Shown here: piece by piece, positions 2,376 through 59,329 of the stretch | How the letters are laid out: each line of letters starts with the position of its first letter | Numbering within the stretch: the first letter of the stretch is position 1 | Origin: a phage | DNA length: 64,000 nt | Assembly: GCA_011939005.1 (NCBI GenBank) | Contig: GCA_011939005.1_4858.1 | Direction: 5' to 3' (one strand) | Translations under genes and position numbers: made by a program | Notes under the pieces: model-generated | The model's input: the letters and a program-made list of their open reading frames with translations, nothing else | Database searches by the model: none | What the model was told of the DNA's origin: nothing

Positions 2376-2969
2376 TTACGCTTCGGCCTCAAAGAACGGC
2401 TGGTTCGGTACCACTGCATATTCGAGCACGAAAAGATGTTCTGGGGCATCTTCTGCTCGCCACAGTTTGTGACACGTTGCCAGTTTTTCCAGGATGGTCA
2501 ACCAGCTGAGCTGGCAGAAAGCACGGTCGCCGAAGAACAGTTTCTGCAGTGCAATCGACACATCCATATACGCCTGTTTGAAGTCGAGTTCTTTATCGTA
2601 ACCCGCCGACTGTCGCCACGTCAGCACGAAACCTGCTTCGGTTTCGTTAATTGCTGGACGTAAACCACAAATCCACATCAGCGCCAGATTAACGTTCCAG
2701 TCGAATTCGATACCTTCGTCTTCGTCATCACCAAACGCCGCGTTTAACGCATCGTAGAAACCGTGGTTCTCTGCGAACCATTCGCCATACTCAACGTATA
2801 CCGGTGCTTCGACAGCTTCCCCATCGACTTCACCGATAGGACGCTCTACATAGTTCGGGTTGGTTTGAACGTGTTCCGCACCCGCGCGAATTAATTCGTA
2901 GACATCTTTGGCGGTGATTTGTGCGGCTGTTTTAAGACCTGGATACCAGGGGCGTGTTACGAGTGTCAA
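2376..2969 (-). CDS. hypothetical protein (197 aa)
   Basis: ORF with apparent TTG start overlapping stop of upstream gene; no motif recognised. Confidence 0.55.
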   Translation of the reverse strand: MTLVTRPWYPGLKTAAQITAKDVYELIRAGAEHVQTNPNYVERPIGEVDGEAVEAPVYVEYGEWFAENHGFYDALNAAFGDDEDEGIEFDWNVNLALMWICGLRPAINETEAGFVLTWRQSAGYDKELDFKQAYMDVSIALQKLFFGDRAFCQLSWLTILEKLATCHKLWRAEDAPEHLFVLEYAVVPNQPFFEAEA

Positions 2970-3688
2970 AGCAATGCTCCTTTCATGATAGTGTTATTTG
3001 CCAGTAGTGTACCGGCCGCAGGTGATATTTTGGTGTACAGCGTATCCCAGATTTTCTGAAGCTCAGCGACGCGTTGGTCGCGGTCTTCCTTCGCAAAAGC
3101 AAGCTGACGTGTTTCAGCTTTCGGTGGCGTCATTTTCGCACCGTAGAATGCTGCGTCTTTTCGGTAGCTGGCCATCCAGCGTTTCCCGACCGATGATTTC
3201 TTTTTAATCATCGCAACAGCAGCGCTCTCACCGAAGCGGTAGCCTAATGCGATTTCGGCTGTGCTCGGCTTGCGTTTGAGTTGTTTTGTCAGATGATCCT
3301 CGATGTGTTTCATGTAAACAGCAGCAAGCTGTACAGCATATTTCGGTTTATTAAGGTCTGCGTTCTTTGGGATGTTAAGTTGTTTCCCATACAGACGTAT
3401 CATGGAGCGTTTAGTGCCTGTCGTCATTTGGACAACACTACTAGCACTGCTCGATTTATTCTTACCCACGTTTTTATTAAAACGGGATTCGCGGTAAATG
3501 GTGGTCGCAAGCATCCCGGCATGTACACCTTGCTTTTGAGATGCAGAGACGATGAGAGGTTTAATCTCATTGAACTGGTCCTGGATAAGGACGAATTCTT
3601 TTTGGTGTTTGTTACTGGTGGTCTGGTAAGAAGCGTTGCTGTTGAATGTGGTCACTGCTACCAGAAGAAATAAAATGGTGCGAAACAT
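2966..3688 (-). CDS. secreted lytic transglycosylase (SLT domain) with N-terminal signal peptide
   Basis: ATG with GGAGA RBS; hydrophobic N-terminus MFRTILFLLVAVTTF; motif ESRFN...SSASSVVQMTTGT resembling the SLT catalytic-Glu region (ES..N...S.GA.GLMQ...T). Confidence 0.6.
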   Translation of the reverse strand: MFRTILFLLVAVTTFNSNASYQTTSNKHQKEFVLIQDQFNEIKPLIVSASQKQGVHAGMLATTIYRESRFNKNVGKNKSSSASSVVQMTTGTKRSMIRLYGKQLNIPKNADLNKPKYAVQLAAVYMKHIEDHLTKQLKRKPSTAEIALGYRFGESAAVAMIKKKSSVGKRWMASYRKDAAFYGAKMTPPKAETRQLAFAKEDRDQRVAELQKIWDTLYTKISPAAGTLLANNTIMKGALL

Positions 3689-3787
3689 GGATGTATCTCC
3701 AAACGGATTTATACTTTTCCGTTCCCAATCCGGGAAGACGGCGCGGACGGCATTGTGCTCCTTTGTAATGTGCCCTGATGATAATAT

Positions 3788-4288
3788 CTATTTGAAACTT
3801 TTTGGGATGATTTTCTCTGCTTCCCTCAGCAGGGTGTCCGGTAAATAGAATCGATAAGTCTGCTCCGTGTGCTGTAGTCTTTTCTGTAAGTGTATAAAGA
3901 TTTCCAATCGCTCATGGTAACGTAACCAACCGTTAGCCATCCCTAGGGGCGGTATCGCAATCCCTCCTTCTAAGTCTTCCCCTAGTCGCGCCAGCGCATC
4001 AATGCCGGACGTGACATAGTAAATCTGCGATTTATAGCGAAAATGGGTTTTAGTAGGAAGGAGTATTACCCCTTCCTCAGGATAACAATAGACCTCACCG
4101 ATAACGATTTGCTCTTTACGACATTTCTGGCGATAGTCATTATAAAGCGATGGGAAGCGTTCTCGGCACGCCAAAGCAATGCCCCTTCCCATTGCACCAA
4201 CACAGTTAACTGTAACGACCTTGAAGCGCTCAGGCGCGTTAAACAGGTCGTGGGAGATAATAGCCTCGTCGATCAGTTCTAGTGACAT
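3788..4288 (-). CDS. macro domain protein (TARG1/Poa1p/DarG-like ADP-ribose hydrolase fold)
   Basis: VNCVGAMGRGIALACRERFP matches the C-I-S...G.GIA..F...F signature of TARG1-type macro domains; later GIAIPPLGMANGW resembles the second macro motif. Confidence 0.55.
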   Translation of the reverse strand: MSLELIDEAIISHDLFNAPERFKVVTVNCVGAMGRGIALACRERFPSLYNDYRQKCRKEQIVIGEVYCYPEEGVILLPTKTHFRYKSQIYYVTSGIDALARLGEDLEGGIAIPPLGMANGWLRYHERLEIFIHLQKRLQHTEQTYRFYLPDTLLREAEKIIPKSFK

Positions 4289-4487
4289 CTATTGCCATAC
4301 CCCATTGTGAAATAACCGGAGACTGAAGCAACGATTCCAGCTCAGTAAGAACTCTGGCTTTTGCTTCTTCGCGCAACTTACGGACTTCCGGATCGGGTTT
4401 ACCTGCGCCTAAATATTGGGGTTCTGTTTGTGGGGTAGGGAAACCACAGAAAGAACTAACCATTATTCCGATGATTGTTTTTTGCAT
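4239..4487 (-). CDS. hypothetical protein (82 aa)
   Basis: ATG with AAGGAA RBS, abuts stop of upstream gene; overlaps macro gene start by 50 nt. Confidence 0.4.
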   Translation of the reverse strand: MQKTIIGIMVSSFCGFPTPQTEPQYLGAGKPDPEVRKLREEAKARVLTELESLLQSPVISQWGMAIDVTRTDRRGYYLPRPV

Positions 4488-4910
4488 TTAGCTATTCCTT
4501 TTCACCCAGGTTTGTACCGCTGACTCGAAACCTTCGTGTTCGATACCGAGTCGTTTCATTGCCAACATAGTGTTGAGGCTATTCGTAATTTCTTCACGGT
4601 AGCAATGGTCGTCCATCTTACGCCAACACTTCTCCGGGTCAACACCTAAGCGTTGGAGTAGATACGCCTCACGCACCATACCAGGCCGCCAGAATTTAGG
4701 GCGGGTAATCGCGATTTCAATCATGGGTGTCATGTCCAACGTGTGCGCGAGAATACTAACCGGCGTTTCCCCAACTTTATCACGTAACGCTAAACGTAAC
4801 CACCACTGAACGTTTGCTTTGGTTTCAGGTAACAGATCGTAGAATAAGGCTGTTTCTTCTTCTGATAAATGATCGTATAGTGATTTTGTTTCGCGAATAG
4901 CGGTAACCAT
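4488..4910 (-). CDS. hypothetical protein (140 aa)
   Basis: ATG with AAGGAG RBS. Confidence 0.65.
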   Translation of the reverse strand: MVTAIRETKSLYDHLSEEETALFYDLLPETKANVQWWLRLALRDKVGETPVSILAHTLDMTPMIEIAITRPKFWRPGMVREAYLLQRLGVDPEKCWRKMDDHCYREEITNSLNTMLAMKRLGIEHEGFESAVQTWVKRNS

Positions 4911-4928
4911 TTTAATGCTCCTTTAGAT

Positions 4929-5447
4929 TTAATCAATCTCGCGTTTAGGGCTCCTGTGAAACTTCACTTCAGGATTATCCTTAAATGTTTCCCAGATAAG
5001 GGACGCACCACCAAGCTCTTTGGTTTTCGTGGTGCGCAAGTGTGAGTCGCCGAGCATAACAGCACAACGTCCTTTTGCCATATACTTTTTAATTTTTTCA
5101 ACCATTTTAGCTTCACGAATATAAAAAGAACGGCTAAAGTTTACAGCCATTCCCTTTTTATCCTTGATATCTTTAGCGTAGGTTGCATCGCTCCAGTCAT
5201 CGATCCCAATAGCAGGGATGCCGAGTTTCTTAGCCAACTCCAGCCCCATGGGCCCAATAGAGTACATCTTCTCCTTTAATGCCTTATCTTGCGCTTTTGC
5301 AGTGTGATATTCATACGGCCCCAGTTCTTCACACAGTAAAAAATCGTATGGTTTTTTCCGATGGTTATCGATGATCGCCCATTCAACACGATTACGATCG
5401 GCCGTGGTATGAATTTCCCCATATATGTCAACACGAATGTCCGTCAT
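4929..5447 (-). CDS. hypothetical protein, possibly TraB/GumN/ChaN (Tiki-like) family
   Basis: ATG with GAGGA RBS; N-terminal IYGEIHT and C-terminal MLGDSHL resemble the GE.H...G..H pair of that family (weak, by eye). Confidence 0.6.
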   Translation of the reverse strand: MTDIRVDIYGEIHTTADRNRVEWAIIDNHRKKPYDFLLCEELGPYEYHTAKAQDKALKEKMYSIGPMGLELAKKLGIPAIGIDDWSDATYAKDIKDKKGMAVNFSRSFYIREAKMVEKIKKYMAKGRCAVMLGDSHLRTTKTKELGGASLIWETFKDNPEVKFHRSPKREID

Positions 5448-5653
5448 TTTAATTCCTCAAAAACTATAGGCACCGGCAGCGTACCAAGCGCTGCTTTAAT
5501 ACACGTACTCAGCGGAGTATCATCGAACGCAACACGACCGATAGTACCCACGTTGATGTGTTTTGGATTTACGGGTAAGAACTCCTTCGCCCGTTCGTAC
5601 TCAGCCCAACAGACATCGGTGTTTAAAGCTGAAAACCCAGGACGGTGAAACAT
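5444..5653 (-). CDS. hypothetical small protein (69 aa)
   Basis: Internal ATG at 5653 with GAGGAG RBS preferred over track start 5698. Confidence 0.4.
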   Translation of the reverse strand: MFHRPGFSALNTDVCWAEYERAKEFLPVNPKHINVGTIGRVAFDDTPLSTCIKAALGTLPVPIVFEELK

Positions 5654-5723
5654 AAATAGCACTCCTCGCGTAAAAATACCCCACTCATAGTGAGGCATAA
5701 TCGTAAGGAGTGCTAAAACAGGA

Positions 5724-6212
5724 CTATGCTACCGCAGTCCTTAAAGGTTCATCTGCTTCCGCAGGAACCTGCTTCGTAAATTCAAGCCATTGTCCGTCGG
5801 TAGAGACTGTCTTGTCAAAACCGCGAGCGGTAAAGAACGCAATACCAGCTTCCTGGCAAGCGTATATTCCCCCATGCGCATTGGTGAACTGTTCGTTCAC
5901 TTCAAGCGCATCAAAAATCTGCGTCATCGTTTTACGACGGCGTGCCATTTCAGACACGAACATCGTACGAATCTTCAGAACCCCAGCGATTACGCGATAC
6001 AAACAGTAACCAACAGGGGTACCCCCTTCCAGAGCAACACAAGCACGGTTCCCCGCCAACAGTTTCTCCAGAGTGAGGTTCGGAATCTCACCTTTTTCGA
6101 TATGGAGTATGGTACGTTGGTGGTTCAGAAATTTATAATGCAGCCCCAACAGCTGTTTATTTTGTGCTTCCGTTAAATCTGAAGATGAGGAAAGAATGAC
6201 AATTTCGGCCAT
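5724..6212 (-). CDS. hypothetical protein, possible GNAT-fold acetyltransferase (162 aa)
   Basis: ATG at 6212 preferred over GTG at 6239; C-terminal AFFTARGF resembles GNAT motif B; weak. Confidence 0.45.
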   Translation of the reverse strand: MAEIVILSSSSDLTEAQNKQLLGLHYKFLNHQRTILHIEKGEIPNLTLEKLLAGNRACVALEGGTPVGYCLYRVIAGVLKIRTMFVSEMARRRKTMTQIFDALEVNEQFTNAHGGIYACQEAGIAFFTARGFDKTVSTDGQWLEFTKQVPAEADEPLRTAVA

Positions 6213-6358
6213 GAGCTGAATTCCTAAGTGAGCTTTCACCTGCGATGAAAGCGAGTAACGAAGAATTGCGTTTGTGTTTTCTTAAGTTTACCGGTAAAGC
6301 TTAGCGGTGTATACCGCTGCAGGTAAAGACCAGTTCTCTATCGGAACCGTGTCTTTGA

Positions 6359-6637
6359 TCAACAACGTCGTTGAAAACGCTGCGATGCTGAGGTAACCTT
6401 CCGTCGCCACATTCGCTCATGGCGCTTCTGATTACCACGCCAGTCTTCCCCGACTGTACGTGAAACTGCAAAATCATCCGGCCCGCAGACTTCCGCGATG
6501 TCTGCTAGAAGGTTCTTTGAAGACCCTATAGCCATCCCCGCGCTCGAAAGAACGATACGCCGGGTTGACACGGCCGCCCCTGAACCCACGACCACGGGAT
6601 CAGAGACTGTTTCACTGTTACATGATACTTCTCCCAC
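6359..6637 (-). CDS. hypothetical Gly/Ser/Val-rich protein (92 aa)
   Basis: GTG start with strong AGGAGGG RBS 7 nt upstream. Confidence 0.4.
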   Translation of the reverse strand: MGEVSCNSETVSDPVVVGSGAAVSTRRIVLSSAGMAIGSSKNLLADIAEVCGPDDFAVSRTVGEDWRGNQKRHERMWRRKVTSASQRFQRRC

Positions 6638-6655
6638 TTCGTAATTACCCTCCTG

Positions 6656-6763
6656 TTAAAACCAACCTTGCATCAATGCAAGGATTGCGCCTAGGGCGTA
6701 TGCGCCCGCTCCTAGTATCAGGCTACAGACGATACACCCAACCCTTTTCACTAAAATAACCAT
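6656..6763 (-). CDS. tiny hydrophobic peptide (35 aa)
   Basis: Hand-translated MVILVKRVGCIVCSLILGAGAYALGAILALMQGWF; single TM; not in ORF track (below length cut-off). Confidence 0.3.
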   Translation of the reverse strand: MVILVKRVGCIVCSLILGAGAYALGAILALMQGWF

Positions 6764-6882
6764 GTTGCTACAAACGCTCCGATTGCGCAAATGATAAGCG
6801 TGATACCAACATCTGTCCATGTGGCACCGTCATACGCACCTGTTGCAATCATGGCTGCGTTGACACTATTCACGACTGTCAT
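6748..6882 (-). CDS. tiny hydrophobic peptide (about 43 aa)
   Basis: Hand-translated MTVVNSVNAAMIATGAYDGATWTDVGITLIICAIGAFVATWLF; AAGGGA RBS; overlaps neighbours by about 16 nt. Confidence 0.3.
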
Positions 6883-7069
6883 AAGCCGGGTCCCTTAAAC
6901 GCGGGGGCTTGCTCCACAGATTACCGAAGTAAACCCCTTCTAAGAACACCAAAACAACTAAGCCCCAAAAGGCAGGCGTAGCGCGAGACATGAAAATACC
7001 GAGTAGCACCACAGTGTGCATTACCACAACTGCCCAAAACTTTAAACGACCAGGTTTACGTCTTGCCAT
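6866..7069 (-). CDS. small membrane protein (67 aa)
   Basis: ATG at 7069 with AAAGGA RBS (track start 7114 is GTG); hydrophobic core FWAVVVMHTVVLLGIFM. Confidence 0.45.
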   Translation of the reverse strand: MARRKPGRLKFWAVVVMHTVVLLGIFMSRATPAFWGLVVLVFLEGVYFGNLWSKPPRLRDPAYDSRE

Positions 7070-7156
7070 GGAATGCCCATCCTTTCGTGCGGATAATCCA
7101 ACCCCAGGCACCACGAATCAACCACAGTGCAATACCGGTTAATACGATACCTTCAA

Positions 7157-7348
7157 TCATGTCCGTTCTCCTATATCTCGCCACTCACAACGCGTGTCGA
7201 ACAGACGTTCTTTAAGAGCAGCAGCTAAATAAACGACCGCAGCGATAACCACTACGGTTGCACAAAAGGAGAGGTACAGTACCATCACAACAAACTGAAG
7301 GAACTGAAAACCCCACCAAGCCCATAAGCGCCAACCTTTATGATGCAT
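7157..7348 (-). CDS. small membrane protein (63 aa)
   Basis: ATG with AAGGGG RBS; Trp-rich hydrophobic segments. Confidence 0.45.
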   Translation of the reverse strand: MHHKGWRLWAWWGFQFLQFVVMVLYLSFCATVVVIAAVVYLAAALKERLFDTRCEWRDIGERT

Positions 7349-9848
7349 ATTTGATTATTACCCCTTCGTTATACACCGGTGGAAGCGTTACACCTTCTGG
7401 TTCCACGACACAGTAGGTGGCTTCGTTAAGTTTAGAATGAACTTCCGCTTCATGCGAAACGACCAGCAATTGAGAAAACTCTCCCGACAACGCCAACGAT
7501 TTAATGAAGTTAACTAATCGGTTTTTGTGTTCTTCATCCATGCCTTCAGATGGTTCATCCAATAACAAAGGATAATTTTGTAAACCAAGTGCTTTATACG
7601 CCGTTAAACGAAACATCATGTTGAAAATGATACGCTGTGCTTTTGAACCTTTCTTCACGTCAGGCACCAGTTCTTCATGGTCTTTTAATCGCACTGGGAA
7701 TGTATAATCCAAATCCCCGTCGGTTAGATCGCATGGAATAACCTGCATCGGATATGCCCACACCATTTCGATATACCGATTCATTAAATCCATGATGCGG
7801 GTAATCGCAGCATAAAAGTAACGACGCAATAATCCTTTTTCGGGTGAGACGGCATTGATAATCAATCTGGCATGATGGTGTTCTTTGAGCAACTCAGCTT
7901 GCTCTTTTTCCAGTTCCGCTAAACGTGCAATAGCCCCTTCCATTTGACGAAACCGTTCACGAGCTGAAGTATACGCATCGAGCTTCGCTTCGCGTCGGTT
8001 TAACAACTCGCGAACCACGACGTTGTTAACGGAGATGTTCATTTCCGATACCAGATGTTCGTAGCCCTTTTGGAAACGTTCGATTGCTTCTTTGGTTTGT
8101 TGCAGTTGGGTGGTTTCGCGTTCCAGCTCATTGGCTTGTCTGCGGTATTCTATCAGTCGTCGGTTAGCCCCGTCCAGTTGTGAACGGATATGTTCAATTT
8201 TCTGGCTCAGCGCACCATCAACGTTACCTACTGCAGCAACAGCCTCTTGCCATTCCCGTTCCGCTGTTGCAAGCTTCGCCGATTGACGCAGATACATCAT
8301 GGCCGAATCTAACTCTTCAGTAAAGGCACGTGCAATGGCACCGTAACGATCCCGCGCCGTGGTGAAGATATCCAGCTCCTGCAGTTTACGGAAAAACAAA
8401 CCGATAACGGGATGATTGGAATACGACATGACGATTTCGCGAATCGTACGTAAGCTACGGACGTCCTCTTCAATCTCTTTGCGGTCACGCAAAAGACTAT
8501 CCATTTCGTCTTTCAGCTGTTTTTTCCAACCTTCATTATCGTTGATGGCCTTTTCAATTTCAGGTAACGACTTACGAATCCCAGGACGGAAACGGTGGTT
8601 ACACTGTGGACAATCAACTTCTGCAGTTTCTAAGAAGTGTTGACGGTCGTGGTATAAACCGTGTAGCACATTCTCACAACGTTGCAACTTTTCAGATAGA
8701 CCCGCAGAGGTTAAATCCATACCCTGTAAACGCTTCTCTAACGCTCCCAGGCGCTCTGTTGTCTTTAACTGGTCCAGATGCATGGACAACGGTAAATTCC
8801 AGTTACAGGCGTCGTTTAACGCGTTCTGAATGCTATCCACGTCGATGCGGGTACCTTCAAACAGAGCCGGGAACATCCAGTTCTGTTGGAATGTTGCCAG
8901 TTCCTGTTTTAAGCTGTCGATTGTTTGTTTTAGACCGGTATGGTTGCGCATCAGATACGCTTGACGCGACTCCTCATCCAGTAGCTGTGACAACTCTTTA
9001 TTGTACATGTTGCATTCAGTTTCAGCAGAGGCAGCTTGCTCGCGCCAGGCAACCACACGACTTTGAAACTCGTTAATCAGTTCGTCAGAAGGCAGAACGC
9101 CATAACGTTCCATAATGAGTTTTACAGCCGGTTGCAACGAAGCAATGCGTTTCCGGATACTATCAACCGAAACGGCGTTATCTAAACCGGGTCTCGCTTC
9201 AATGGTGCGGTTTAGTTCCTGAAGCTCAACGTCCAGTTCTTTCAAACGAACTTCCAAACGTGCACGATCTTCTTCATCGTCAACGACGCGCATTTTTGCT
9301 TCGCCGATTTTTCGTCCGGTGTGCTCAATGGCCCCACTTAAACTGGAAGCGAGTTTACGCAGACGACGATAACAACCAACAACGTACGTCAGATCAGATT
9401 CTGACATTAACGTAAACCATTTACGACGAACTTCAGTGGTGGCGTCTGTTAATAAGGTCTCACCATTAATTAACTCTTTGATTTCTTTGGTGATTCCGGT
9501 TAATTGCTCCACCATGGAGTTGTAAACTTTAGCGTTTACTGAATCTACGATGGAAACACCTTTAGTGATGTTGAAGATACTACAAGACAAAGAAGACCCA
9601 CGTCGCAGGACTTCAAACTTAAGACGGTCGTCCCCAACTAACGCGTAGTTAGTGTAGGAACCACCTTCACGGAATTCTGATTTTGCTGGAGCTAAGGGGA
9701 GAAAAACAGATAGGAGGCTTGTTTTACCGCAGCCGTTGCCACCGAGGATGATGGTAACGGTTGACTTAAGGGTGAAATCAAACGTTTCGATTTCATGTAA
9801 CCCCATGCCGGTAAATCCTTTCAAAATGATACGTTCGACCTTGAGCAT
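7338..9848 (-). CDS. SbcC/Rad50-like recombination ATPase (T4 gp46-like architecture)
   Basis: N-terminal Walker A GGNGCGKTS; long coiled-coil middle; CPQC zinc-hook-like motif; C-terminal Walker B LLLDEP. Confidence 0.8.
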   Translation of the reverse strand: MLKVERIILKGFTGMGLHEIETFDFTLKSTVTIILGGNGCGKTSLLSVFLPLAPAKSEFREGGSYTNYALVGDDRLKFEVLRRGSSLSCSIFNITKGVSIVDSVNAKVYNSMVEQLTGITKEIKELINGETLLTDATTEVRRKWFTLMSESDLTYVVGCYRRLRKLASSLSGAIEHTGRKIGEAKMRVVDDEEDRARLEVRLKELDVELQELNRTIEARPGLDNAVSVDSIRKRIASLQPAVKLIMERYGVLPSDELINEFQSRVVAWREQAASAETECNMYNKELSQLLDEESRQAYLMRNHTGLKQTIDSLKQELATFQQNWMFPALFEGTRIDVDSIQNALNDACNWNLPLSMHLDQLKTTERLGALEKRLQGMDLTSAGLSEKLQRCENVLHGLYHDRQHFLETAEVDCPQCNHRFRPGIRKSLPEIEKAINDNEGWKKQLKDEMDSLLRDRKEIEEDVRSLRTIREIVMSYSNHPVIGLFFRKLQELDIFTTARDRYGAIARAFTEELDSAMMYLRQSAKLATAEREWQEAVAAVGNVDGALSQKIEHIRSQLDGANRRLIEYRRQANELERETTQLQQTKEAIERFQKGYEHLVSEMNISVNNVVVRELLNRREAKLDAYTSARERFRQMEGAIARLAELEKEQAELLKEHHHARLIINAVSPEKGLLRRYFYAAITRIMDLMNRYIEMVWAYPMQVIPCDLTDGDLDYTFPVRLKDHEELVPDVKKGSKAQRIIFNMMFRLTAYKALGLQNYPLLLDEPSEGMDEEHKNRLVNFIKSLALSGEFSQLLVVSHEAEVHSKLNEATYCVVEPEGVTLPPVYNEGVIIKYAS

Positions 9849-9901
9849 GTTTGCCTTCTAATGAGAAAGTATTAGTCGTTCATATCCAAAAGGTCATGCG
9901 T

Positions 9902-9933
9902 AAAAAAGAAGAAATGGAACCCCGAAGGGTTCC
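9902..9933 (-). terminator. rho-independent terminator
   Basis: Hairpin ggaacc-ccgaa-gggttcc followed by T-run on minus strand. Confidence 0.6.
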
Positions 9934-9944
9934 AGAGAGGAGAG

Positions 9945-35584: not shown

Positions 35585-36472
35585 ATGAAAAACGATTTGC
35601 ATCTTGCGTATAAAACCACATTCAACCACCCGCTGCATCTATCTTCCCCAGATTCAGTGCGTGCACATCTCGCTGACAAAGTCAGACTGATTGCACAGAT
35701 TCCTGGTGAGTGGCCAAAGGTTCGTGGTCGCTTCTTGACCGACAAGAAGAACTACACCGTAGAAAATACGTTTAAGATCCGTGATATGGTTGCAGAGGCC
35801 ATCGTTATCTTTAACGGCGATGGTAACTCTCGCGGCGTGTTGGTTGACGGTAAGTATTTCTTCAGTGAAGGGATTCTGAACAACAGTGTCGATTTAGAAC
35901 TGATGTTTACACCGTTTGACGAACTTGAAGCAAAACCGATGGCGCGCCGTTGGTGGAGTCCGGACTATCTGGGCTCGTTCCCTTACTACTTTGTACTGGT
36001 ACCTGCCGATACGGAAACGTATTTCGACACCGAACCATACATCGATATCGAGGGGTATAAAGAACTCGGCATCACCCGTTTAGCGGACATGATGGCGTAT
36101 AGCTATAAGTTCGTGTGGGATAAAAAGCGTTCTGTCTGGTATGCGCTGACTGACGATTTTGAAATCACCAAGCGTATTCGTAAGCCGTGGATGCAACACC
36201 TGGTTCAAACTCGATATGGGGATTACCCGGCGACAGAAGCGGATTTGAGTAAGCTGGTAAGTTTCCTCTTAACGAAGGTGGATTTAACGAAAGAAGAAGC
36301 AGAAGCTGTTTCTGAGATTCGTGGTCGTTCGGTAACGTTGGCCGATTTGAAACGTCTGAACGAAAGACACGCCGACCTGAACAAAATTTTAGCTGCCTAT
36401 CACGACCCGATGTTACTGGTGCCTGGCGCTAACGTAGACGAAGATCCTTTATTCGCCATTGATTATATTTAA
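35585..36472 (+). CDS. hypothetical protein (295 aa) in radical-SAM cluster
   Basis: ATG with GGAG RBS; no recognisable motif. Confidence 0.65.
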   Translation: MKNDLHLAYKTTFNHPLHLSSPDSVRAHLADKVRLIAQIPGEWPKVRGRFLTDKKNYTVENTFKIRDMVAEAIVIFNGDGNSRGVLVDGKYFFSEGILNNSVDLELMFTPFDELEAKPMARRWWSPDYLGSFPYYFVLVPADTETYFDTEPYIDIEGYKELGITRLADMMAYSYKFVWDKKRSVWYALTDDFEITKRIRKPWMQHLVQTRYGDYPATEADLSKLVSFLLTKVDLTKEEAEAVSEIRGRSVTLADLKRLNERHADLNKILAAYHDPMLLVPGANVDEDPLFAIDYI

Positions 36473-36494
36473 AAATATACTGGAGCAACCTGCA

Positions 36495-37409
36495 ATGACA
36501 GATCAAGTAGAATCCAGGATCTCGTCTGAACTGTACGACAAACCGTCAATTCTGTCGGTTGTCGCAACTTCTAAGTGTAACTTAGACTGTAGCTTCTGTG
36601 GAGGGGCTTATTACATGGATAGAGAAGATACTTCTCGTGAGTTTCAACGTGAAGAGATTCTCTCGATTTTAGAGAAGAATCCGGATATCGGTGAGATTCA
36701 TTGGACGGGCGGTGAGCCGCTGTTAGCGCAGCGCAAGATTGAAGACTTCGTGAACGAGTTGAAGGAGTCTCATCCGAACCTCCGTCATCACATGTACACC
36801 AACGGTTTAAAGATGCGTAAATCACATCTGCCGTTGCTGAAACAGTTCGACCTTATCTTTGTGTCCATTGACGGCTACAAGAAGTCGGAACGTCCGTTTA
36901 TGAACTTTGTAAACGGTGGTAATCACGAAGCGCTGGAAGTGCTGTACGAGCTGGACAACTATTACACCTGGGGTGTGATGACGCGTGACCAGTTAGGTGA
37001 TAAACGCTGGTACGAAGATTTCATCGAGCTGCACCGAGCAATCTATCATTACCGTCCAGGTGGTATGTCGTTGCTGTTTGATGCGATGATGCCGAAACCG
37101 TTATCGCCAGACCACGTCATGAACTTCATGTACGGGTATTGGAAAATACTCGACAATATCGAACGCCTTAACATGCAGAACGATTCTGAATGTGGGCTTG
37201 CGATCAGTAAAATGTTCGATACCGAGTGCAACACGTGCAGTGAAGTGCTGTGGCTTAACGCCGACGGTACGCAGGAGCAAATTCAGAACGCCCCAGAGAT
37301 ATTGGAAGTCGGCTGTAATCGCCTGGCGCGTTCTATCGGCGTTGATGCGTATAACTACATCAACCGTGTAATTTCTGCTAAGCGTAAACGGGCGGCGAAC
37401 AATGAGTAA
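36495..37409 (+). CDS. radical SAM enzyme (305 aa)
   Basis: CNLDCSFC (CxxxCxxC) near N-terminus, GGEPLL and YTNGL motifs, additional C-terminal Cys (ECNTCSEV...GCN); ATG at 36495 with GGAG RBS. Confidence 0.8.
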   Translation: MTDQVESRISSELYDKPSILSVVATSKCNLDCSFCGGAYYMDREDTSREFQREEILSILEKNPDIGEIHWTGGEPLLAQRKIEDFVNELKESHPNLRHHMYTNGLKMRKSHLPLLKQFDLIFVSIDGYKKSERPFMNFVNGGNHEALEVLYELDNYYTWGVMTRDQLGDKRWYEDFIELHRAIYHYRPGGMSLLFDAMMPKPLSPDHVMNFMYGYWKILDNIERLNMQNDSECGLAISKMFDTECNTCSEVLWLNADGTQEQIQNAPEILEVGCNRLARSIGVDAYNYINRVISAKRKRAANNE

Positions 37410-38730
37410 TAGCGAACAGCAAATCCAGTACACACCACGCACGTATCAGGTTGTGACTAACCTGTCATGTAACCTGGACTGCGAATACTGCTACGAGCGT
37501 AAATATCCACGCAATAACAAAGTAGCTGACGTGATTGATTTTATCCACGCTTGCTTCGAGCGCGATAAAGATATCCCGAACGTTGAAGTCATCATCGATA
37601 TCATCGGTGGTGAGCCGTTCATGCAGCCTAAACTTCTTTTGGCGGCCTTTGAAACCGCAGAGAAGTTATGCGCAGAACACAATCGCCCGTATATGTTCAG
37701 TATCTCCACGAACGGTACACTTCTGGACCGTCCGCTGAACAAAGAAATTATCGAGCGCTGGAAAGACAAACTGTCTATTGGGGTCTCCATCGATGGTTTA
37801 CCTGAAGTCCATGACAAATATCGTATCTTTACCACGACGCGTGAAGGGTCGTACGAAGCTGCGGTACGTGGTTACAATTATCTGAAGAGTGTTGGCATCG
37901 CTGAACTGGGCGTAAAGGCGACGTTTACGATCGATACATTGCCGCACTATGCCGCCAGCATGAAATCGTTAATTGACATGTCCGGCGGTGGTACCATTTC
38001 TGGTAACGTAACGTACGAAGATATCCTACCGCGCCATATGGCGTTGGATATCGCGAACCAGATGATGGACGTGATGGACTACTGGATTGAGAAGGGTCTG
38101 CACACCAACCCGCGTAACACGATTACACACATCATCCCGGATGGCCTGAACTTTATGGCAACTTGGGACCCGGATTGGCGTGACAAACTCTTACATGACG
38201 ACTCTGTTCGTCTCGACCCAGAACGCCTGAAACCGTACTGCGGTACGTTGACGCACATGACCTGTCTCGGCTTTGATCGCAAGATTTACGGTTGTAACCG
38301 TTTCATGTCCACGGTAACTTCCCGTTCTGCTGTAGCAGAACTGGTCGGTCGTGAGTTTGTGAGCCTGGACGGTGGTAAGCTGTTAGAAGAGATTCAAACG
38401 CAGTACACCAACTACCCAGAAACCTGTTTAGGGTGTCCGATGAAACACAGTTGCGGTAGCTGCGCGGCAGCATCGTACGAAAACGGTGAAGGTACACTGG
38501 AAGACCGTAAAGCGTATCATGCCGAGCGTCGTCAGTGTGGTTGGACTACTGCGAAGCTGATGGCGGCAGAATATTGGTATCAGAAAACTGGTACGACCCG
38601 CGCATCAGATTTGCATGATAAATCCATGTGCTATTGTTCACGTTGTGTACGCCAACGTGCTGAAGCAGAAAAATTACAAAACGGAGCCCAGAATGAAGTC
38701 AATACTGATTCACAATTTTACGAAGCGTAA
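37402..38730 (+). CDS. radical SAM enzyme with SPASM-like C-terminal Cys cluster (442 aa)
   Basis: CNLDCEYC, GGEPF, STNGTLL motifs; C-terminal CLGCPMKHSCGSCAAASY and CYCSRC; overlaps previous gene by 8 nt. Confidence 0.85.
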   Translation: MSNSEQQIQYTPRTYQVVTNLSCNLDCEYCYERKYPRNNKVADVIDFIHACFERDKDIPNVEVIIDIIGGEPFMQPKLLLAAFETAEKLCAEHNRPYMFSISTNGTLLDRPLNKEIIERWKDKLSIGVSIDGLPEVHDKYRIFTTTREGSYEAAVRGYNYLKSVGIAELGVKATFTIDTLPHYAASMKSLIDMSGGGTISGNVTYEDILPRHMALDIANQMMDVMDYWIEKGLHTNPRNTITHIIPDGLNFMATWDPDWRDKLLHDDSVRLDPERLKPYCGTLTHMTCLGFDRKIYGCNRFMSTVTSRSAVAELVGREFVSLDGGKLLEEIQTQYTNYPETCLGCPMKHSCGSCAAASYENGEGTLEDRKAYHAERRQCGWTTAKLMAAEYWYQKTGTTRASDLHDKSMCYCSRCVRQRAEAEKLQNGAQNEVNTDSQFYEA

Positions 38731-47154: not shown

Positions 47155-48054
47155 TTAAGGCAGAACGAGTTCAAGTACCGCGATAGAACGTATTGTATTG
47201 GTTTCGTATCTACCGTACGACGGCGACTCTGGGTAGGGTGGACGGTTGTACCACTGATTGTAAATGTCAGACATAGCCGCAAAGAATGCAGATTGTTGGG
47301 CAGTAGTCGAATCGATTGAACCGACCGGAAGGTCGTCAAAGCGCGGCAACTGCCCACTGTAGTTGTACAGGCGCGCGAAAGTGTTAAACCACTCACCGTC
47401 GAGATACAACTCACTGTTACCGCTTCTAACGTTAGTCGTCCAGAATCTGTAGTCGAACAAATACGGCAAGCGCACCACGTATTCGTAACCGTTCTTCGCC
47501 ACCGTGCGGCGTTGGTTACGTGCAGTGGCCCAGCTCGGTACAAATCCATTGCCATCCTGGCCGTACATCAGCCCCTGGTTATAAATGAACTGCGGGCTAG
47601 CGTATATTATCGAGTTATCGGACATAAACAGAATACGGTTTTTGTAAATGAATTTATGCCAGGCACCAACGGCGGAACTGAACATATTCACCACGAGGCT
47701 GTTCAGTTCCGCGTTAGTGAATAACTCTGCTGGCGTTACTGTTCCAAAGTATCCAGCGTGCCAGTCGCCGTATAACAGCTTCTGGGGGCCAGGCCCGGTG
47801 TCTAAAAAGAACCCTTGGGCGGTAGGGGTGTTGAAGACACGCTCACCGTCTTTAACCGCAGCTATCCAATAACGGTAAGTGGTGTTGTTTTCCACAGCGT
47901 TGTCTTCGTACGATGTAGCGTCACCCGGAAGGGTTGCCAGAGGCGTTCCCGGTGCATTAACATCAATGGTGGCGTTGCCCGGCGTCTTGCGATAGATTTC
48001 AATGTTATCGAGCGCCTGTGGCTTCCGTTGTGCAAAGTTTAATGTAATAGGCAT
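47155..48054 (-). CDS. module protein B2 (299 aa), FN3-like N-terminus
   Basis: ATG at 48054 with GAGGAT RBS; paralog of 50569..51492 (IEIYRK...TYRYW, DTGPGPQ..GYFGTV). Confidence 0.75.
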   Translation of the reverse strand: MPITLNFAQRKPQALDNIEIYRKTPGNATIDVNAPGTPLATLPGDATSYEDNAVENNTTYRYWIAAVKDGERVFNTPTAQGFFLDTGPGPQKLLYGDWHAGYFGTVTPAELFTNAELNSLVVNMFSSAVGAWHKFIYKNRILFMSDNSIIYASPQFIYNQGLMYGQDGNGFVPSWATARNQRRTVAKNGYEYVVRLPYLFDYRFWTTNVRSGNSELYLDGEWFNTFARLYNYSGQLPRFDDLPVGSIDSTTAQQSAFFAAMSDIYNQWYNRPPYPESPSYGRYETNTIRSIAVLELVLP

Positions 48055-48056
48055 GA

Positions 48057-49046
48057 TTAATCCTCGATAAGCTCGATTACTGGAATCCAAATACCGCCCA
48101 CGGTCGCACCAGGGACATGTTGTATACGCTGGAGGTTATCCACGGTATCAGTGGAATCCGTCGTCGCTGTTCCGCGCGTCAGCCCCAACTTACGGTCTGG
48201 GTCAAACTCCTGACAATGCACCCCACGGCCACTCACCACCGATCCATTTCCGAATATGCTGATGTTCGACCGCGTTAACAGGGACATCACTTTTTTCTTT
48301 GCTGGGAACCAGGTACTTATCCCATAGATGAGTCGGTTGTATTCGCTATCGGCAGTATACGGTGACACGTCATGGATTTTTCCGTCCCACTGTGCATCGA
48401 GCGCCATGACCGGACTTTCACTGTCGTGTGTTAAACCGCGCAGCAATCGCATCCGATAGCGGTCACCCAACCACGTAAACTCCCCAGACTGGTCAACGTC
48501 AGGTAAATCACCATGACCGCCTTCCGGACCAGGTCCCGCCACACCGTACAGCAAACCCGCGTTATAAATCGCATCACGGCTATACAGCGTGTTGCCGTTC
48601 ACACGAAGACCACTAAGCAGATACAGAATTTTACCGTCTAGCTGGAACTTAAACAAGTACAGCTTAACAGTTGGGTCAATTCCAGAAAGGGCCACAAACC
48701 CTGGCGGATAATCACCCACGCTAGGCAATTCATCGTACGCCACATTCCCGTAATACGCAAAGCGGTCATCACCGTACTGTGGAGTCACGATGCCGATACC
48801 GCGACGGTTCTGAATCAGAATTGATTTCTGCGGACTGAACAGTGTCCGGCTTCCCACTGTCACGGTGGTCATGTAGTAATACGTTGTCCCCAGTATCGCT
48901 GTTCGGTCAGTATACTCAGTTTCCCCGTTAGTGAACGTTGCCAGAGGTTCAGGTAATGCCGTACGCACCAGAGGTTTGGTGTCGCGGTACAGCTTCACGG
49001 TCGAAGCCCCAGGGTTATTGTTCGTCCAACGAATTGTAAAAGCCAT
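48057..49046 (-). CDS. module protein A2 (329 aa), FN3-like N-terminus
   Basis: ATG with AGAGGTA RBS; paralog of 51502..52500. Confidence 0.8.
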   Translation of the reverse strand: MAFTIRWTNNNPGASTVKLYRDTKPLVRTALPEPLATFTNGETEYTDRTAILGTTYYYMTTVTVGSRTLFSPQKSILIQNRRGIGIVTPQYGDDRFAYYGNVAYDELPSVGDYPPGFVALSGIDPTVKLYLFKFQLDGKILYLLSGLRVNGNTLYSRDAIYNAGLLYGVAGPGPEGGHGDLPDVDQSGEFTWLGDRYRMRLLRGLTHDSESPVMALDAQWDGKIHDVSPYTADSEYNRLIYGISTWFPAKKKVMSLLTRSNISIFGNGSVVSGRGVHCQEFDPDRKLGLTRGTATTDSTDTVDNLQRIQHVPGATVGGIWIPVIELIED

Positions 49047-49058
49047 TGTCGTTACCTC

Positions 49059-50555
49059 TTATTGGAATCCATCCAACTCACCGTTAGTATCGCCCAGAGT
49101 AATTTTTGAAGGTTGGGCGATTTGGTCAGTCGTGAGAATAATCGGTCTAATCTTAACGCTAGCCATGCCTGTTACCGCGACGGAATATGCACGTTCATCA
49201 TTGTCCGTCGTGGCAAGCAGAGGACGTGGTGAGTCTGATGACGCTTCCCGTACCCAGGCAGGGGTGGCAGTTTCGGTGTTGTCGGTGTTGAAAACTAACG
49301 GACGTGGATTCGCTGCAGCGGAGGTTTCCGTAATCGGCACCACACGAAGCGATTCATTTTGGTCGATGTCCGTCAGAGTAACCACGGACGGTGCCCATGT
49401 TAGTTCTGCACCTTCGTCAATCAACGGCACAGGTTCATTGGCAACATCAATCATCTCCAAGATTGGCCAAAAGCCAGAAGAGGTGTAGATGTAGGTGTAT
49501 GAACGATAGCTCCCACTGATAGACTGGTAATACGCTTGGTCGGCACCGAACTGGTGTCGTAACCACACGTAATCCAGGAAGTTAGCATCAGTCGTGCTAA
49601 GAGTTCCCCATTCCCCATATACGTTCACCGACCCCAATTTGCTGGTCAGTGACAGGATAGAGGTGATTGACGGCGGTTTACTCCAATCAGGCGCGGCGGC
49701 GTTCTCGGTGTAATACGGGATAGACATTCTGAAATAATGCGTTCCTTCATCATCCCGTTTTACCATGTATTTCAACTGTTCAACATCGACAGGTGTGTAA
49801 GTCGACTTCGGGCGAGGTCCTGCGTCTCCGGAATCAAATATTGCACCCTTGTTGTACAGGTCTGCCCAGGTAACGTTGCAAATCGCACGGGTCGGAACAA
49901 ACACTACCGCCCCATTCAGAAAGAATTTGAGCCACTTGATAGCGTAGCGGTTAGGCCAGTTGGTGCCGTTATAGAGGGCATACACCATTTCATCAGATGT
50001 GAATAACTCTTCCGCGCTTACCAGCCCAAAAAATCCGTATAACTCATTACCGGCCATTAATCCTTTTGGCCCAGGGCCCGACTTCGGATACATCGCAATC
50101 GGTTCGTAAACATAGGTCATCTTGCATGACCCGGTATAGCACAAGGAGTTAGCGTGCGCCGTCAGAGTTACAGTTTCTGGCGTAGCGTATTTCATTAATG
50201 CAACGTTTGGACTGGTGATGTCACTCGCGGTTAAGTTCAACCCGTTCAATTCATTGAACGCCGGTAACGCTTCCGCATGGGTTTGTGCGCTACGTGGAAT
50301 ACTCACCATCTTCGGGCCAGACTTGAACAGACTGGCCAGATTCAACCGGTCGTAATAGACCGTTATTTCCCCAGCAAATCCTTTACCGGGTTTACCTACC
50401 AACGTAATCTGTGTGTTTCGTCCGTTAACGTTTTTCGCAACAGGAACACCCCTGACCCCAATGGAGTCAGCGGTGATTTTTCCTGCTAAACCGGGATTGT
50501 CACGCACAATTTGTTGGCAGAGCAGTTCCATTGAAGGTTCTGTATACAACCCCAT
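49059..50555 (-). CDS. module protein C2 (498 aa), family N-terminal domain, C-terminus ...NGELDGFQ
   Basis: ATG with GGAG RBS; TVYYDRLNL motif; about 27-aa C-terminal repeats. Confidence 0.8.
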   Translation of the reverse strand: MGLYTEPSMELLCQQIVRDNPGLAGKITADSIGVRGVPVAKNVNGRNTQITLVGKPGKGFAGEITVYYDRLNLASLFKSGPKMVSIPRSAQTHAEALPAFNELNGLNLTASDITSPNVALMKYATPETVTLTAHANSLCYTGSCKMTYVYEPIAMYPKSGPGPKGLMAGNELYGFFGLVSAEELFTSDEMVYALYNGTNWPNRYAIKWLKFFLNGAVVFVPTRAICNVTWADLYNKGAIFDSGDAGPRPKSTYTPVDVEQLKYMVKRDDEGTHYFRMSIPYYTENAAAPDWSKPPSITSILSLTSKLGSVNVYGEWGTLSTTDANFLDYVWLRHQFGADQAYYQSISGSYRSYTYIYTSSGFWPILEMIDVANEPVPLIDEGAELTWAPSVVTLTDIDQNESLRVVPITETSAAANPRPLVFNTDNTETATPAWVREASSDSPRPLLATTDNDERAYSVAVTGMASVKIRPIILTTDQIAQPSKITLGDTNGELDGFQ

Positions 50556-50568
50556 GGCTTTTACTCCG

Positions 50569-51492: not shown

Positions 51493-51501
51493 GACTGCCC
51501 C

Positions 51502-52500: not shown

Positions 52501-52511
52501 AGATGATACCT

Positions 52512-54002: not shown

Positions 54003-54017
54003 AGGGACTCCGCATCG

Positions 54018-54046
54018 CCAAAAGAGGGGGCTCCGAAGAGCCCCTA
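54018..54046 (-). terminator. rho-independent terminator
   Basis: Hairpin ggggctc-cgaa-gagcccc followed by short T-run on minus strand. Confidence 0.5.
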
Positions 54047-54049
54047 CAC

Positions 54050-54877: not shown

Positions 54878-54880
54878 CAA

Positions 54881-55768: not shown

Positions 55769-55778
55769 TCGCTAATTC

Positions 55779-56618: not shown

Positions 56619-56634
56619 AATAGCCTCCTCGGCC

Positions 56635-56680
56635 AAAAAAGAAAGGAGTAGCCGGGAGGAGGATTTCCTCCTCCCAGCGA
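56635..56680 (-). terminator. rho-independent terminator inside the paralog array
   Basis: Hairpin gggaggagga-tt-tcctcctccc followed by T-run on minus strand. Confidence 0.55.
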
Positions 56681-56687
56681 GGCCTAA

Positions 56688-57599: not shown

Positions 57600-57620
57600 T
57601 CTTACTTCCTTTACTCAGGA

Positions 57621-58466: not shown

Positions 58467-58476
58467 GTCAAAATCC

Positions 58477-59319: not shown

Positions 59320-59329
59320 CTATACCCTC

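What the first reader, a model, noticed from the sequence alone, without database searches (positions are those of the whole stretch)
3788..4288. Phage-encoded TARG1/DarG-like macro domain: candidate counter-defence ADP-ribose hydrolase
The motif VNCVGAMGRGIALACRERFP fits the TARG1/Poa1p/DarG macro-domain signature rather than the canonical NAAN type. Enzymes of this class remove ADP-ribose from proteins or, in the case of DarG, from ADP-ribosylated thymidine in DNA. A phage copy could neutralise host ADP-ribosylating defence toxins such as DarT.
Basis: partly seen in the sequence, partly recalled or inferred. Interest (0 to 1): 0.6.

Follow-up and report, generated by a model that had tools for sequence, protein, structure and literature searches.

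The report
Phage anti-DarT macrodomain (AdfM ortholog)

Summary
The ORF at 3788-4288 (minus strand, 166 aa) and its motif VNCVGAMGRGIALACRERFP are real. Sequence profiles and a confident structure model (pLDDT 92) both place the protein in the DarG branch of macrodomains. DarG structures match at E≈1e-56, TARG1 at 1e-9 and Poa1p at 5e-4. The residues needed for DarG activity are present as N28 and K80, and they are invariant in 220 relatives. The protein has only the macrodomain. It lacks DarG's C-terminal DarT-binding domain and has no adjacent darT, so it is an orphan antitoxin-like enzyme.

The window is a Seoulvirus (SPN3US-like, Chimalliviridae). The protein is 69% identical and syntenic to Erwinia phage Asesino gp217, and 35% identical to PhiKZ gp104. 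Both are named AdfM in Morgan et al. 2026 (PMC13309987). That paper showed that PhiKZ AdfM removes DarT2-made ADP-ribose from DNA, enters the phage nucleus and protects against DarTG2.

What remains open is small. This clade has a conserved variant of the substrate-grasping loop (G-M-A-N-G-W instead of G-x-G-N-G-G), and its enzymatic activity has never been assayed.

The parts
3788..4288 (-). Gene for a 166-aa stand-alone DarG2-like macrodomain. It is the ortholog of SPN3US ACQ60_gp070 and Asesino gp217 (AdfM).
   Evidence: ORF. Identified as SPN3US gp070, annotated 'macro domain-containing protein'. 69.3% identical to Asesino gp217, 34.8% to PhiKZ gp104 and 30.7% to Goslar gp83. AF2 model pLDDT 92.3. 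Foldseek top hits are 5M3E, 5M31 and 5M3I, all DarG macrodomains.
4151..4210 (-). Residues 27-46, VNCVGAMGRGIALACRERFP. This is the first ADP-ribose-binding loop and contains N28 (codon 4205-4207), equivalent to Taq DarG N22 and PhiKZ AdfM N23.
   Evidence: Translation. Alignment. N is present in 219 of 220 relatives. N22A impairs Taq DarG (PMC5179494), and mutating the conserved active-site asparagine (construct gp104 N23A) reduces PhiKZ AdfM activity (PMC13309987).
4040..4057 (-). Residues 78-83, PTKTHF. K80 (codon 4049-4051) is the catalytic lysine. T79 contacts ADP-ribose. F83 replaces DarG W83, the proposed thymine-stacking aromatic residue.
   Evidence: Translation. K is present in 220 of 220 relatives. 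K80A inactivates Taq DarG (PMC5179494).
3923..3952 (-). Residues 113-122, PPLGMANGWL. This is the second, mobile diphosphate-grasping loop. G116, N119 and G120 are conserved. M117, A118 and W121 are clade-specific replacements of DarG A/C118, G119 and G122.
   Evidence: Translation. Residue mapping and frequencies. W121 is found in 61 of 113 macro-only relatives but only 1 of 57 full-length DarG-architecture proteins. The loop's role is taken from PMC5179494.

Best explanation
The gene encodes an AdfM-type orphan antitoxin: a single DarG2-like macrodomain that works as a DNA ADP-ribosylglycohydrolase. When an E. coli or Salmonella host carries a DarTG2 system, infection releases DarT2, which ADP-ribosylates thymidines in single-stranded phage DNA and blocks replication and packaging. 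The phage enzyme binds the ADP-ribose moiety with its two glycine-rich loops. It uses K80, with help from N28, to cleave the thymine-ribose bond and restore unmodified DNA. It has no DarT-binding domain, so it can only erase the modification and cannot sequester the toxin. By analogy with its 69%-identical Asesino ortholog, it is probably imported into the phage nucleus, where the replicating genome sits. What is shown here: the ORF, the fold, the DarG-subfamily placement, conservation of the catalytic residues, the macro-only architecture, orthology and synteny with named AdfM proteins, and purifying selection. What is inferred: the enzymatic activity and substrate of this particular protein, its nuclear import, and protection against DarTG2.
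For: Subfamily placement: the family profile against PDB gives DarG macrodomains 5M3I at 1.9e-56 and 5M31/5M3E at 1.2e-53, T. africanus DarTG 7OMU at 1.4e-35, then TARG1 at only 1.3e-9. PADLOC DarG scores 4e-32 and NCBIfam antitoxin_DarG 9.7e-31. Fold: the AF2 model has pLDDT 92.3 and pTM 0.89, and Foldseek ranks 5M3E, 5M31, 5M3I and 7OMU ahead of TARG1. Active site: of the 17 Taq DarG ADP-ribose-pocket and loop positions mapped, 9 are identical (L15, T26, N28, T79, K80, H82, G116, N119, G120), 4 are conservative changes (D14, R35, I37, F83) and 4 differ (A40, M117, A118, W121). N and K are invariant in the family. Orthology: the protein is 69.3% identical to Asesino gp217 in the same position next to the endolysin/transglycosylase gene, and it matches PhiKZ gp104 (3e-17) and Goslar gp83. 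All three are listed as AdfM in PMC13309987. Published function of the family: PhiKZ AdfM removes DarT2 ADP-ribose from DNA and rescues DarT2 toxicity, and its deletion costs 3-6 logs of titre on DarTG2 hosts. Asesino, PhiKZ and PhiPA3 AdfM localise to the phage nucleus. Host relevance: E. coli (EPEC) has a functional DarTG2 that modifies TTT/TCT in ssDNA (PMC7003065). The phage is a chimallivirus: it is 99% identical to Seoulvirus genomes, and Seoulvirus is classified in Chimalliviridae. Selection: dN/dS is 0.14.
Against: No activity, localisation or phenotype has been measured for this protein or any member of its clade. For Asesino gp217 only localisation was reported. The mobile substrate-grasping loop differs from DarG and from the assayed PhiKZ AdfM: it reads G-M-A-N-G-W rather than G-x-G-N-G-G or G-C-A-N-G-G. 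It also carries A at the position where G119E impaired Taq DarG, although PhiKZ AdfM has A there too and is active. In a rough NJ tree the clade does not group with PhiKZ AdfM, so function transfers across about 35% identity. Taq DarG also acts, more weakly, on uracil-ADP-ribose in RNA (PMC13036486), so DNA may not be the only substrate.
Confidence: 0.8

Rival explanations
1. The macrodomain acts on other macromolecular ADP-ribose conjugates. One option is uracil-linked ADP-ribose on RNA. Another is protein-linked ADP-ribose, as with TARG1. In either case it would counter a different host ADP-ribosyltransferase or tune a phage-encoded one.
For: TARG1 is the next closest solved relative. Taq DarG and SCO6735 hydrolyse U-ADPr on ssRNA in vitro (PMC13036486). 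The clade-specific loop changes (W121, M117, F83) could shift specificity.
Against: The DarG match is about 45 orders of magnitude better than the TARG1 match. Taq DarG is less efficient on U-ADPr than on T-ADPr. No ADP-ribosyltransferase was detected among the seven flanking ORFs. The assayed family member, PhiKZ AdfM, acts on DarT2-modified DNA and its deletion phenotype is DarTG2-specific.
Confidence: 0.1
2. It degrades small soluble ADP-ribose derivatives, such as ADPr-1''-phosphate, O-acetyl-ADPr or cyclic ADPr immune signals like those of Thoeris. This is what Iyer et al. 2021 proposed in general for jumbo-phage macrodomains, and it is implied by the 'phosphatase' and 'Appr-1-p processing' annotations.
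For: PHROG 335 is labelled 'phosphatase'. Several records carry 'Appr-1-p processing' or 'ADP-ribose 1-phosphate phosphatase' labels. Iyer et al. made the general proposal (PMC7824862). Poa1p is detectable as a distant relative.
Against: Poa1p matches only at E about 5e-4 with the profile, against 1e-56 for DarG. The labels are inherited names, not tests. The catalytic Lys/Asn pair of the DarG/TARG1 glycohydrolase mechanism is invariant. The family member that was tested acts on DNA.
Confidence: 0.07
3. It is a non-catalytic ADP-ribose reader or a decaying remnant with no enzymatic role.
For: The bulky W121 and M117 in the normally glycine-rich loop might occlude the pocket. The Pfam Macro score is just below threshold.
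Against: K80, N28, T79, G116 and G120 are invariant, and W121 itself is conserved in 61 of 61 clade members. dN/dS is 0.14. The gene keeps its place in a conserved gene block even in a distant marine relative. The apparently broken copies in SPFM phage records are a scrambling artefact of the records.
Confidence: 0.03

Closest known systems
AdfM (anti-DarT factor macro) of chimalliviruses: PhiKZ gp104, PhiPA3 gp108, Goslar gp83, Asesino gp217 (Morgan et al., Cell Rep 2026, PMC13309987)
   Same: It is a stand-alone DarG2-like macrodomain of about 160-185 aa encoded by a nucleus-forming jumbo phage. The catalytic Asn and Lys are conserved. It is 69% identical and syntenic to Asesino gp217, and matches PhiKZ gp104 at 3e-17.
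   Different: Only about 35% and 31% identical to the biochemically and genetically tested PhiKZ protein and to the Goslar protein. Its loop 2 reads G-M-A-N-G-W instead of G-C-A-N-G-G. It sits in a different genomic neighbourhood from PhiKZ gp104. It does not cluster with PhiKZ or Goslar in a rough NJ tree. Activity is untested in this clade.
DarG2 antitoxin of the DarTG2 toxin-antitoxin system (T. aquaticus, M. tuberculosis, EPEC; PDB 5M31, 5M3E, 5M3I)
   Same: Closest solved structures and best profile matches. Same fold, same K80/N22 catalytic pair and the same ADP-ribose-binding loops.
   Different: It has no C-terminal DarT-binding domain: it is 166 aa, whereas the PADLOC and NCBIfam DarG models are 329 and 338 positions long and match only through positions 6-150. 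The NCBIfam score is 107 bits against a cut-off of 250. There is no adjacent darT. It is encoded by a phage, not by a bacterial TA operon. It therefore cannot sequester the toxin, the second mechanism shown for EPEC and Taq DarG.
AdfN (orphan DarG1-like NADAR proteins of T4-like phages; Johannesman et al. 2025, PMC11825919)
   Same: Same strategy: the phage carries the enzymatic half of the host antitoxin as an orphan gene to erase DarT-made ADP-ribose from its DNA.
   Different: AdfN has an unrelated fold (NADAR, not macro) and a different target (guanine-ADPr made by DarT1). AdfN does not counter DarTG2.
TARG1 / C6orf130 (human terminal ADP-ribose glycohydrolase) and SCO6735 (Streptomyces macro-only T-ADPr hydrolase)
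   Same: Same macrodomain sub-branch with a catalytic lysine. SCO6735 is likewise macro-only.
   Different: Much more distant: the profile gives E=1.3e-9 for TARG1 and 16-19% identity in structural alignments.

Membership tests
Macrodomain superfamily (Pfam PF01661) | Sequence match to the Pfam Macro model at or above the gathering score | tested here: inconclusive
   The score is 21.7 bits against a cut-off of 22.0, E=2e-4, covering profile positions 2-105 of 118. Several 62-63%-identical homologs carry a precomputed PF01661 hit.
Macrodomain superfamily (Pfam PF01661) | Three-layer alpha/beta/alpha macro fold | tested here: met
   The AF2 model has pLDDT 92.3 and pTM 0.89. All top Foldseek PDB hits are macrodomains, with TM 0.76-0.84 to DarG macrodomains.
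DarG2 antitoxin (type II TA DarTG2) | DarG-type macrodomain with the catalytic Lys (Taq K80) and Asn (Taq N22) | tested here: met
   K80 and N28 align to Taq K80 and N22. DarG structures are the best PDB matches. PADLOC DarG scores 4e-32.
DarG2 antitoxin (type II TA DarTG2) | C-terminal DarT-binding (toxin-sequestering) domain, giving a full length of about 330-390 aa | tested here: not met
   The protein is 166 aa. It matches only positions 6-147 of 329 (PADLOC) and 7-150 of 338 (NCBIfam). The NCBIfam equivalog score is 107.3 bits against a cut-off of 250.
DarG2 antitoxin (type II TA DarTG2) | Encoded in an operon with a darT ADP-ribosyltransferase gene | tested here: not met
   The flanking genes are an SLT transglycosylase, a GNAT acetyltransferase and hypothetical proteins. 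No ART domain was found in the seven flanking ORFs.
AdfM (chimallivirus anti-DarT factor macro) | Encoded by a chimallivirus (nucleus-forming jumbo phage) | tested here: met
   The tested 2.5-kb stretch (3000-5500) is 97.8-99% identical to SPN3US-type Seoulvirus genomes. Seoulvirus is classified in Chimalliviridae. The chimallin gene itself lies outside this window and was not examined.
AdfM (chimallivirus anti-DarT factor macro) | Homology to PhiKZ gp104 and the other named members (the paper defined the family by PSI-BLAST from PhiKZ gp104) | tested here: met
   tblastn gives PhiKZ gp104 at 34.8% and 3e-17, Goslar gp83 at 30.7% and 3e-11, and Asesino gp217 at 69.3% and 7e-74. The identity of those genes was checked in the records against the accessions listed in the paper. 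Whether SPN3US itself appears in the paper's Figure S1 could not be checked, because the supplements are not held.
AdfM (chimallivirus anti-DarT factor macro) | Removes DarT2-made ADP-ribose from thymidine in ssDNA and neutralises DarT2 toxicity | not testable with these tools
   Shown for PhiKZ AdfM only. Here it is inferred from the conserved active site.
AdfM (chimallivirus anti-DarT factor macro) | Imported into the phage nucleus (PicA-dependent) | not testable with these tools
   Shown for the Asesino, PhiKZ and PhiPA3 proteins. The paper notes that import signals co-evolve with the cognate PicA, so this cannot be read from the sequence.
   The profile gives E=1.3e-9 for TARG1 and 5.3e-4 for Poa1p, against 1.9e-56 for DarG. 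Foldseek gives the same order.

The most novel reading that the evidence does not exclude
The Seoulvirus/Erskinevirus-type macrodomains, together with related marine jumbo-phage proteins, may form a separate and long vertically inherited lineage of macro-only DarG-like enzymes. Its mark is a remodelled substrate-grasping loop (G-M-[AV]-N-G-W) and F83 in place of the thymine-stacking W. This lineage could have arisen from DarG independently of PhiKZ AdfM. It could also have a shifted specificity, for example for different DarT-family products, sequence contexts, or uracil-ADPr on RNA, rather than being a simple AdfM equivalent.
Probability: 0.12. Interest if true: 0.5.

Novelty: already known. 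Interest (0 to 1): 0.22.

Why it matters
The finding shows that a tool-free reading of raw sequence correctly predicted a counter-defence function that was demonstrated experimentally for this protein family in 2026. For phage biology, it extends the AdfM story from Pseudomonas phages to SPN3US-type phages of Salmonella and E. coli, which are being considered for biocontrol. Such phages should resist DarTG2-carrying hosts, and loss of this gene should narrow their host range. The only new angle is the clade-specific active-site loop, which is untested biochemically and could be used to probe how DarG-type macrodomains recognise the modified base.

Tried and rejected
1. Single-sequence AlphaFold gave pLDDT 38 and was discarded. 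The model built on a 66-sequence alignment was used instead.
2. The BFVD viral fold search returned only generic phage and RNA-virus macrodomains and added nothing.
3. The sigma-70 promoter and terminator scan around the gene was at chance level, with 4 sites against 2.3±1.6 expected and 2 against 1.5±1.3. These phages use their own RNA polymerases anyway, which I state from general knowledge.
4. A Pfam scan of the seven flanking ORFs, looking for a partner ADP-ribosyltransferase, found none.
5. The apparently truncated or frameshifted copies in SPFM phage records were considered as evidence that the gene is dispensable. I rejected this, because the SPFM12 record has its 60-nt blocks in reversed order, which is a deposition artefact.
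6. I tried to show that the window clade and PhiKZ AdfM derive independently from DarG. The full-data NJ tree separates them, but bootstrap support for the exact W clade is only 46 of 100 and deeper relationships are unresolved. I report this as tentative.
7. The AdfM paper's supplementary list of chimallivirus homologs is not held, so I could not confirm that SPN3US is explicitly listed.
8. There are no tRNAs in the window.

Full report
**1. The observation**

The window carries an ATG-to-stop ORF at exactly 3788..4288 on the minus strand, encoding 166 aa. The quoted motif VNCVGAMGRGIALACRERFP is residues 27-46, at window 4151-4210.

**2. Where the window comes from**

The stretch 3000-5500 is 99.0% identical to Escherichia phage vB_EcoM_EC001 and 97.8% identical to Salmonella phage SPN3US. 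The protein is 100% identical to that of Escherichia phage vB_EcoM_Lh1B and 98.8% identical to the SPN3US protein. In the SPN3US RefSeq record the gene is ACQ60_gp070, already annotated 'macro domain-containing protein'. Other records call it 'hypothetical protein', 'phosphatase' or, wrongly, 'protein-ADP-ribosylation protein'.

Seoulvirus is classified in Chimalliviridae, the nucleus-forming jumbo phages. Judging from the SPN3US annotation, the rest of the window is mostly virion structural genes. Chimallin and PicA lie outside the window.

**3. What the protein is**

The generic Pfam Macro model scores just below threshold, at 21.7 bits against a cut-off of 22. Subfamily-specific models are unambiguous:

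| Search | Best match | Score |
|---|---|---|
| PADLOC | DarG | E=4e-32 |
| NCBIfam | antitoxin_DarG | E=9.7e-31 |
| PHROGs | PHROG 335 | E=6.6e-30 |
| PDB, single sequence | M. tuberculosis DarG macrodomain 5M3I | E=1.9e-20 |
| PDB, single sequence | T. aquaticus DarG macrodomain 5M31/5M3E | E=8e-19 |

The identities of the PDB entries were confirmed in PMC5179494.

A profile built from 66 homologs separates the sub-branches cleanly:

| Solved structure | E-value |
|---|---|
| DarG, 5M3I | 1.9e-56 |
| DarG, 5M31 | 1.2e-53 |
| T. africanus DarTG, 7OMU | 1.4e-35 |
| TARG1 | 1.3e-9 |
| Alphavirus nsP3 macrodomains | about 1e-5 |
| Poa1p | 5e-4 |

The single-sequence AlphaFold model was useless, with pLDDT 38. 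With the alignment, the model reached pLDDT 92.3 and pTM 0.89. Foldseek against the PDB gives the same order as the profile: 5M3E, 5M31, 5M3I and 7OMU, then TARG1.

**4. The active site**

I mapped the Taq DarG residues described in PMC5179494 onto the window protein using the alignments:

| Taq DarG | Window | Note |
|---|---|---|
| N8 | D14 | conservative change |
| L9 | L15 | identical |
| T20 | T26 | identical |
| N22 | N28 | identical; catalytic helper |
| K29 | R35 | conservative change |
| V31 | I37 | conservative change |
| Q34 | A40 | differs |
| T79 | T79 | identical |
| K80 | K80 | identical; catalytic lysine |
| H82 | H82 | identical |
| W83 | F83 | aromatic retained |
| G117 | G116 | identical |
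| A118 | M117 | differs |
| G119 | A118 | differs |
| N120 | N119 | identical |
| G121 | G120 | identical |
| G122 | W121 | differs |

The catalytic lysine is present in 220 of 220 relatives and the asparagine in 219 of 220. The relatives came from an exhaustive search that found 4244 hits at E≤1e-3.

The PhiKZ protein, which is active, also has Ala at the G119 position, so that change is tolerated. The real difference lies in the mobile loop that grasps ADP-ribose. This clade has G-M-[A/V]-N-G-W where DarG has G-x-G-N-G-G. W121 occurs in 61 of 113 macro-only relatives but in only 1 of 57 proteins with the full-length DarG architecture.

**5. Architecture and context**

The protein is a macrodomain and nothing else. 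It matches only the N-terminal half of the DarG models, positions 6-147 of 329 and 7-150 of 338. Its NCBIfam score of 107 bits is far below the equivalog cut-off of 250. No ADP-ribosyltransferase was found among the seven flanking ORFs. The neighbours are an SLT transglycosylase (2966..3688), a GNAT acetyltransferase (5724..6239) and hypothetical proteins.

The protein is therefore not a DarG antitoxin in the strict sense. It is an orphan copy of DarG's enzymatic half. DarG's second mechanism, toxin sequestration through its C-terminal domain (PMC5179494 and PMC7003065), is not available to it.

The gene is under purifying selection, with dN/dS of 0.14 against the STsAS ortholog.

**6. Relation to what is known**

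Morgan et al. [quoted passage not shown] For PhiKZ gp104 they reported that it:
- removes DarT2-made ADP-ribose from DNA;
- loses activity when the conserved Asn is mutated;
- rescues DarT2 toxicity;
- is needed for plating on DarTG2 hosts, where its deletion costs 3 to 6 logs of titre.

They also showed that AdfM from PhiKZ, PhiPA3 and Erwinia phage Asesino localises to the phage nucleus.

The window protein is 69.3% identical to Asesino gp217 and sits in the same position, next to the endolysin/transglycosylase gene. It also matches PhiKZ gp104 (34.8%, 3e-17) and Goslar gp83 (30.7%). I confirmed from the records that these hits are the genes named in the paper. The same orphan-antitoxin strategy is known for DarTG1, where T4-like phages carry the NADAR protein AdfN (PMC11825919). 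E. coli strains do carry functional DarTG2 (PMC7003065).

**7. What is slightly new**

- In a neighbour-joining tree of 220 macrodomains, the 61 W121-bearing macro-only proteins form one clade. It contains the window protein and Asesino gp217. It excludes PhiKZ gp104, Goslar gp83 and the DarG references. The nearest neighbours of PhiKZ gp104 are full-length bacterial DarGs.
- Bootstrap support is modest. The exact clade is recovered in 46 of 100 replicates, and PhiKZ is never its sister. Independent origin is therefore only a possibility.
- A 37-41%-identical clade member on a 129-kb marine metagenome contig keeps the same gene block: an SMC/SbcC-like ATPase, the macrodomain, an SLT gene, and further on an Rv2179c-like exoribonuclease. 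The window and SPN3US share this block. This argues for long vertical inheritance within a phage lineage.
- No member of this clade has been assayed for activity.

**8. Rival explanations**

- Action on RNA uracil-ADPr or protein-ADPr is possible, because Taq DarG has weak U-ADPr activity (PMC13036486). The very strong DarG-specific signal and the DarTG2-specific phenotype of PhiKZ AdfM make it less likely.
- Degradation of soluble ADPr derivatives was the older general proposal for jumbo-phage macrodomains (PMC7824862) and is the source of the 'phosphatase' labels. It rests on names rather than tests.
- A non-catalytic or decaying protein is contradicted by the invariant catalytic residues and by purifying selection. 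The broken copies in SPFM records are an artefact.

**9. Verdict**

The gene is an AdfM ortholog, which is already known. Interest is low to moderate. The only open points are the untested biochemistry and the unusual loop of this clade.

Noticed in passing
L012 (LR535911.1, Salmonella phage SPFM12, record 67923-68960); also proteins P0037, P0038, P0042, P0043, P0047, P0050 and P0052 from other SPFM records: In the SPFM12 record the macrodomain gene appears as consecutive 60-nt blocks in reversed block order, with each block still in forward orientation. It looks as if the lines of the sequence file were reversed. This creates bogus truncated 'proteins' in databases. It is a deposition artefact, not a pseudogene. 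Only SPFM12 was inspected directly; the other SPFM entries are presumed to share the cause.
   Followed up: partly
window 4239..4487 (-): An 82-aa ORF (SPN3US gp071) ends 50 nt inside the start of the macrodomain gene, in another reading frame. An unannotated 99-aa ORF in Asesino (L003:2751-3050) is 43% identical (E=5e-16) and overlaps gp217 by the same 50 nt. The small gene and the unusual overlap therefore look conserved. It has no Pfam match.
   Followed up: partly
L007/L008 (marine metagenome contigs, 30.6 and 129 kb), genes at 5486-10035; window 2966..9848: A distant homolog (P0056) lies in the same block as here: an SMC/SbcC-like ATPase, the macrodomain and an SLT transglycosylase, followed by a DUF7194 protein, an Rv2179c-like exoribonuclease and RNase H. 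This indicates a conserved jumbo-phage gene block shared between enteric and marine phages.
   Followed up: partly
window 4929..5447 (-): A 172-aa ORF two annotated genes upstream of the macrodomain gene has only a sub-threshold match to DUF5694 (17.7 bits against 27.5, E=0.005). Its function is unknown.
   Followed up: no
window about 36459..38730 (+): Two adjacent ORFs correspond by position to SPN3US gp102 and gp103, both annotated 'radical SAM domain-containing protein'. This is an unusual enzyme pair to find among tail and structural genes of a jumbo phage. The correspondence is by coordinate mapping only.
   Followed up: no
window about 47155..60127 (-): There is a long run of about 13 similarly sized genes (265-500 aa). 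In SPN3US most are annotated as virion structural proteins (one is 'hypothetical protein'), which suggests a tandem paralog array. Paralogy was not tested.
   Followed up: no
proteins P0014 and P0016: Homologs 62-63% identical to the window protein sit on 79-kb and 226-kb contigs labelled Salmonella enterica in NCBI. These are probably genomes of a distinct, uncharacterised jumbo-phage lineage hidden in bacterial assemblies.
   Followed up: no
window 3788..4288, database annotations: The same gene is variously labelled 'phosphatase' (PHROG 335), 'Appr-1-p processing protein', 'protein-ADP-ribosylation protein' and 'hypothetical protein' across phage records. None of these labels reflects the DarG-type glycohydrolase assignment.
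   Followed up: yes
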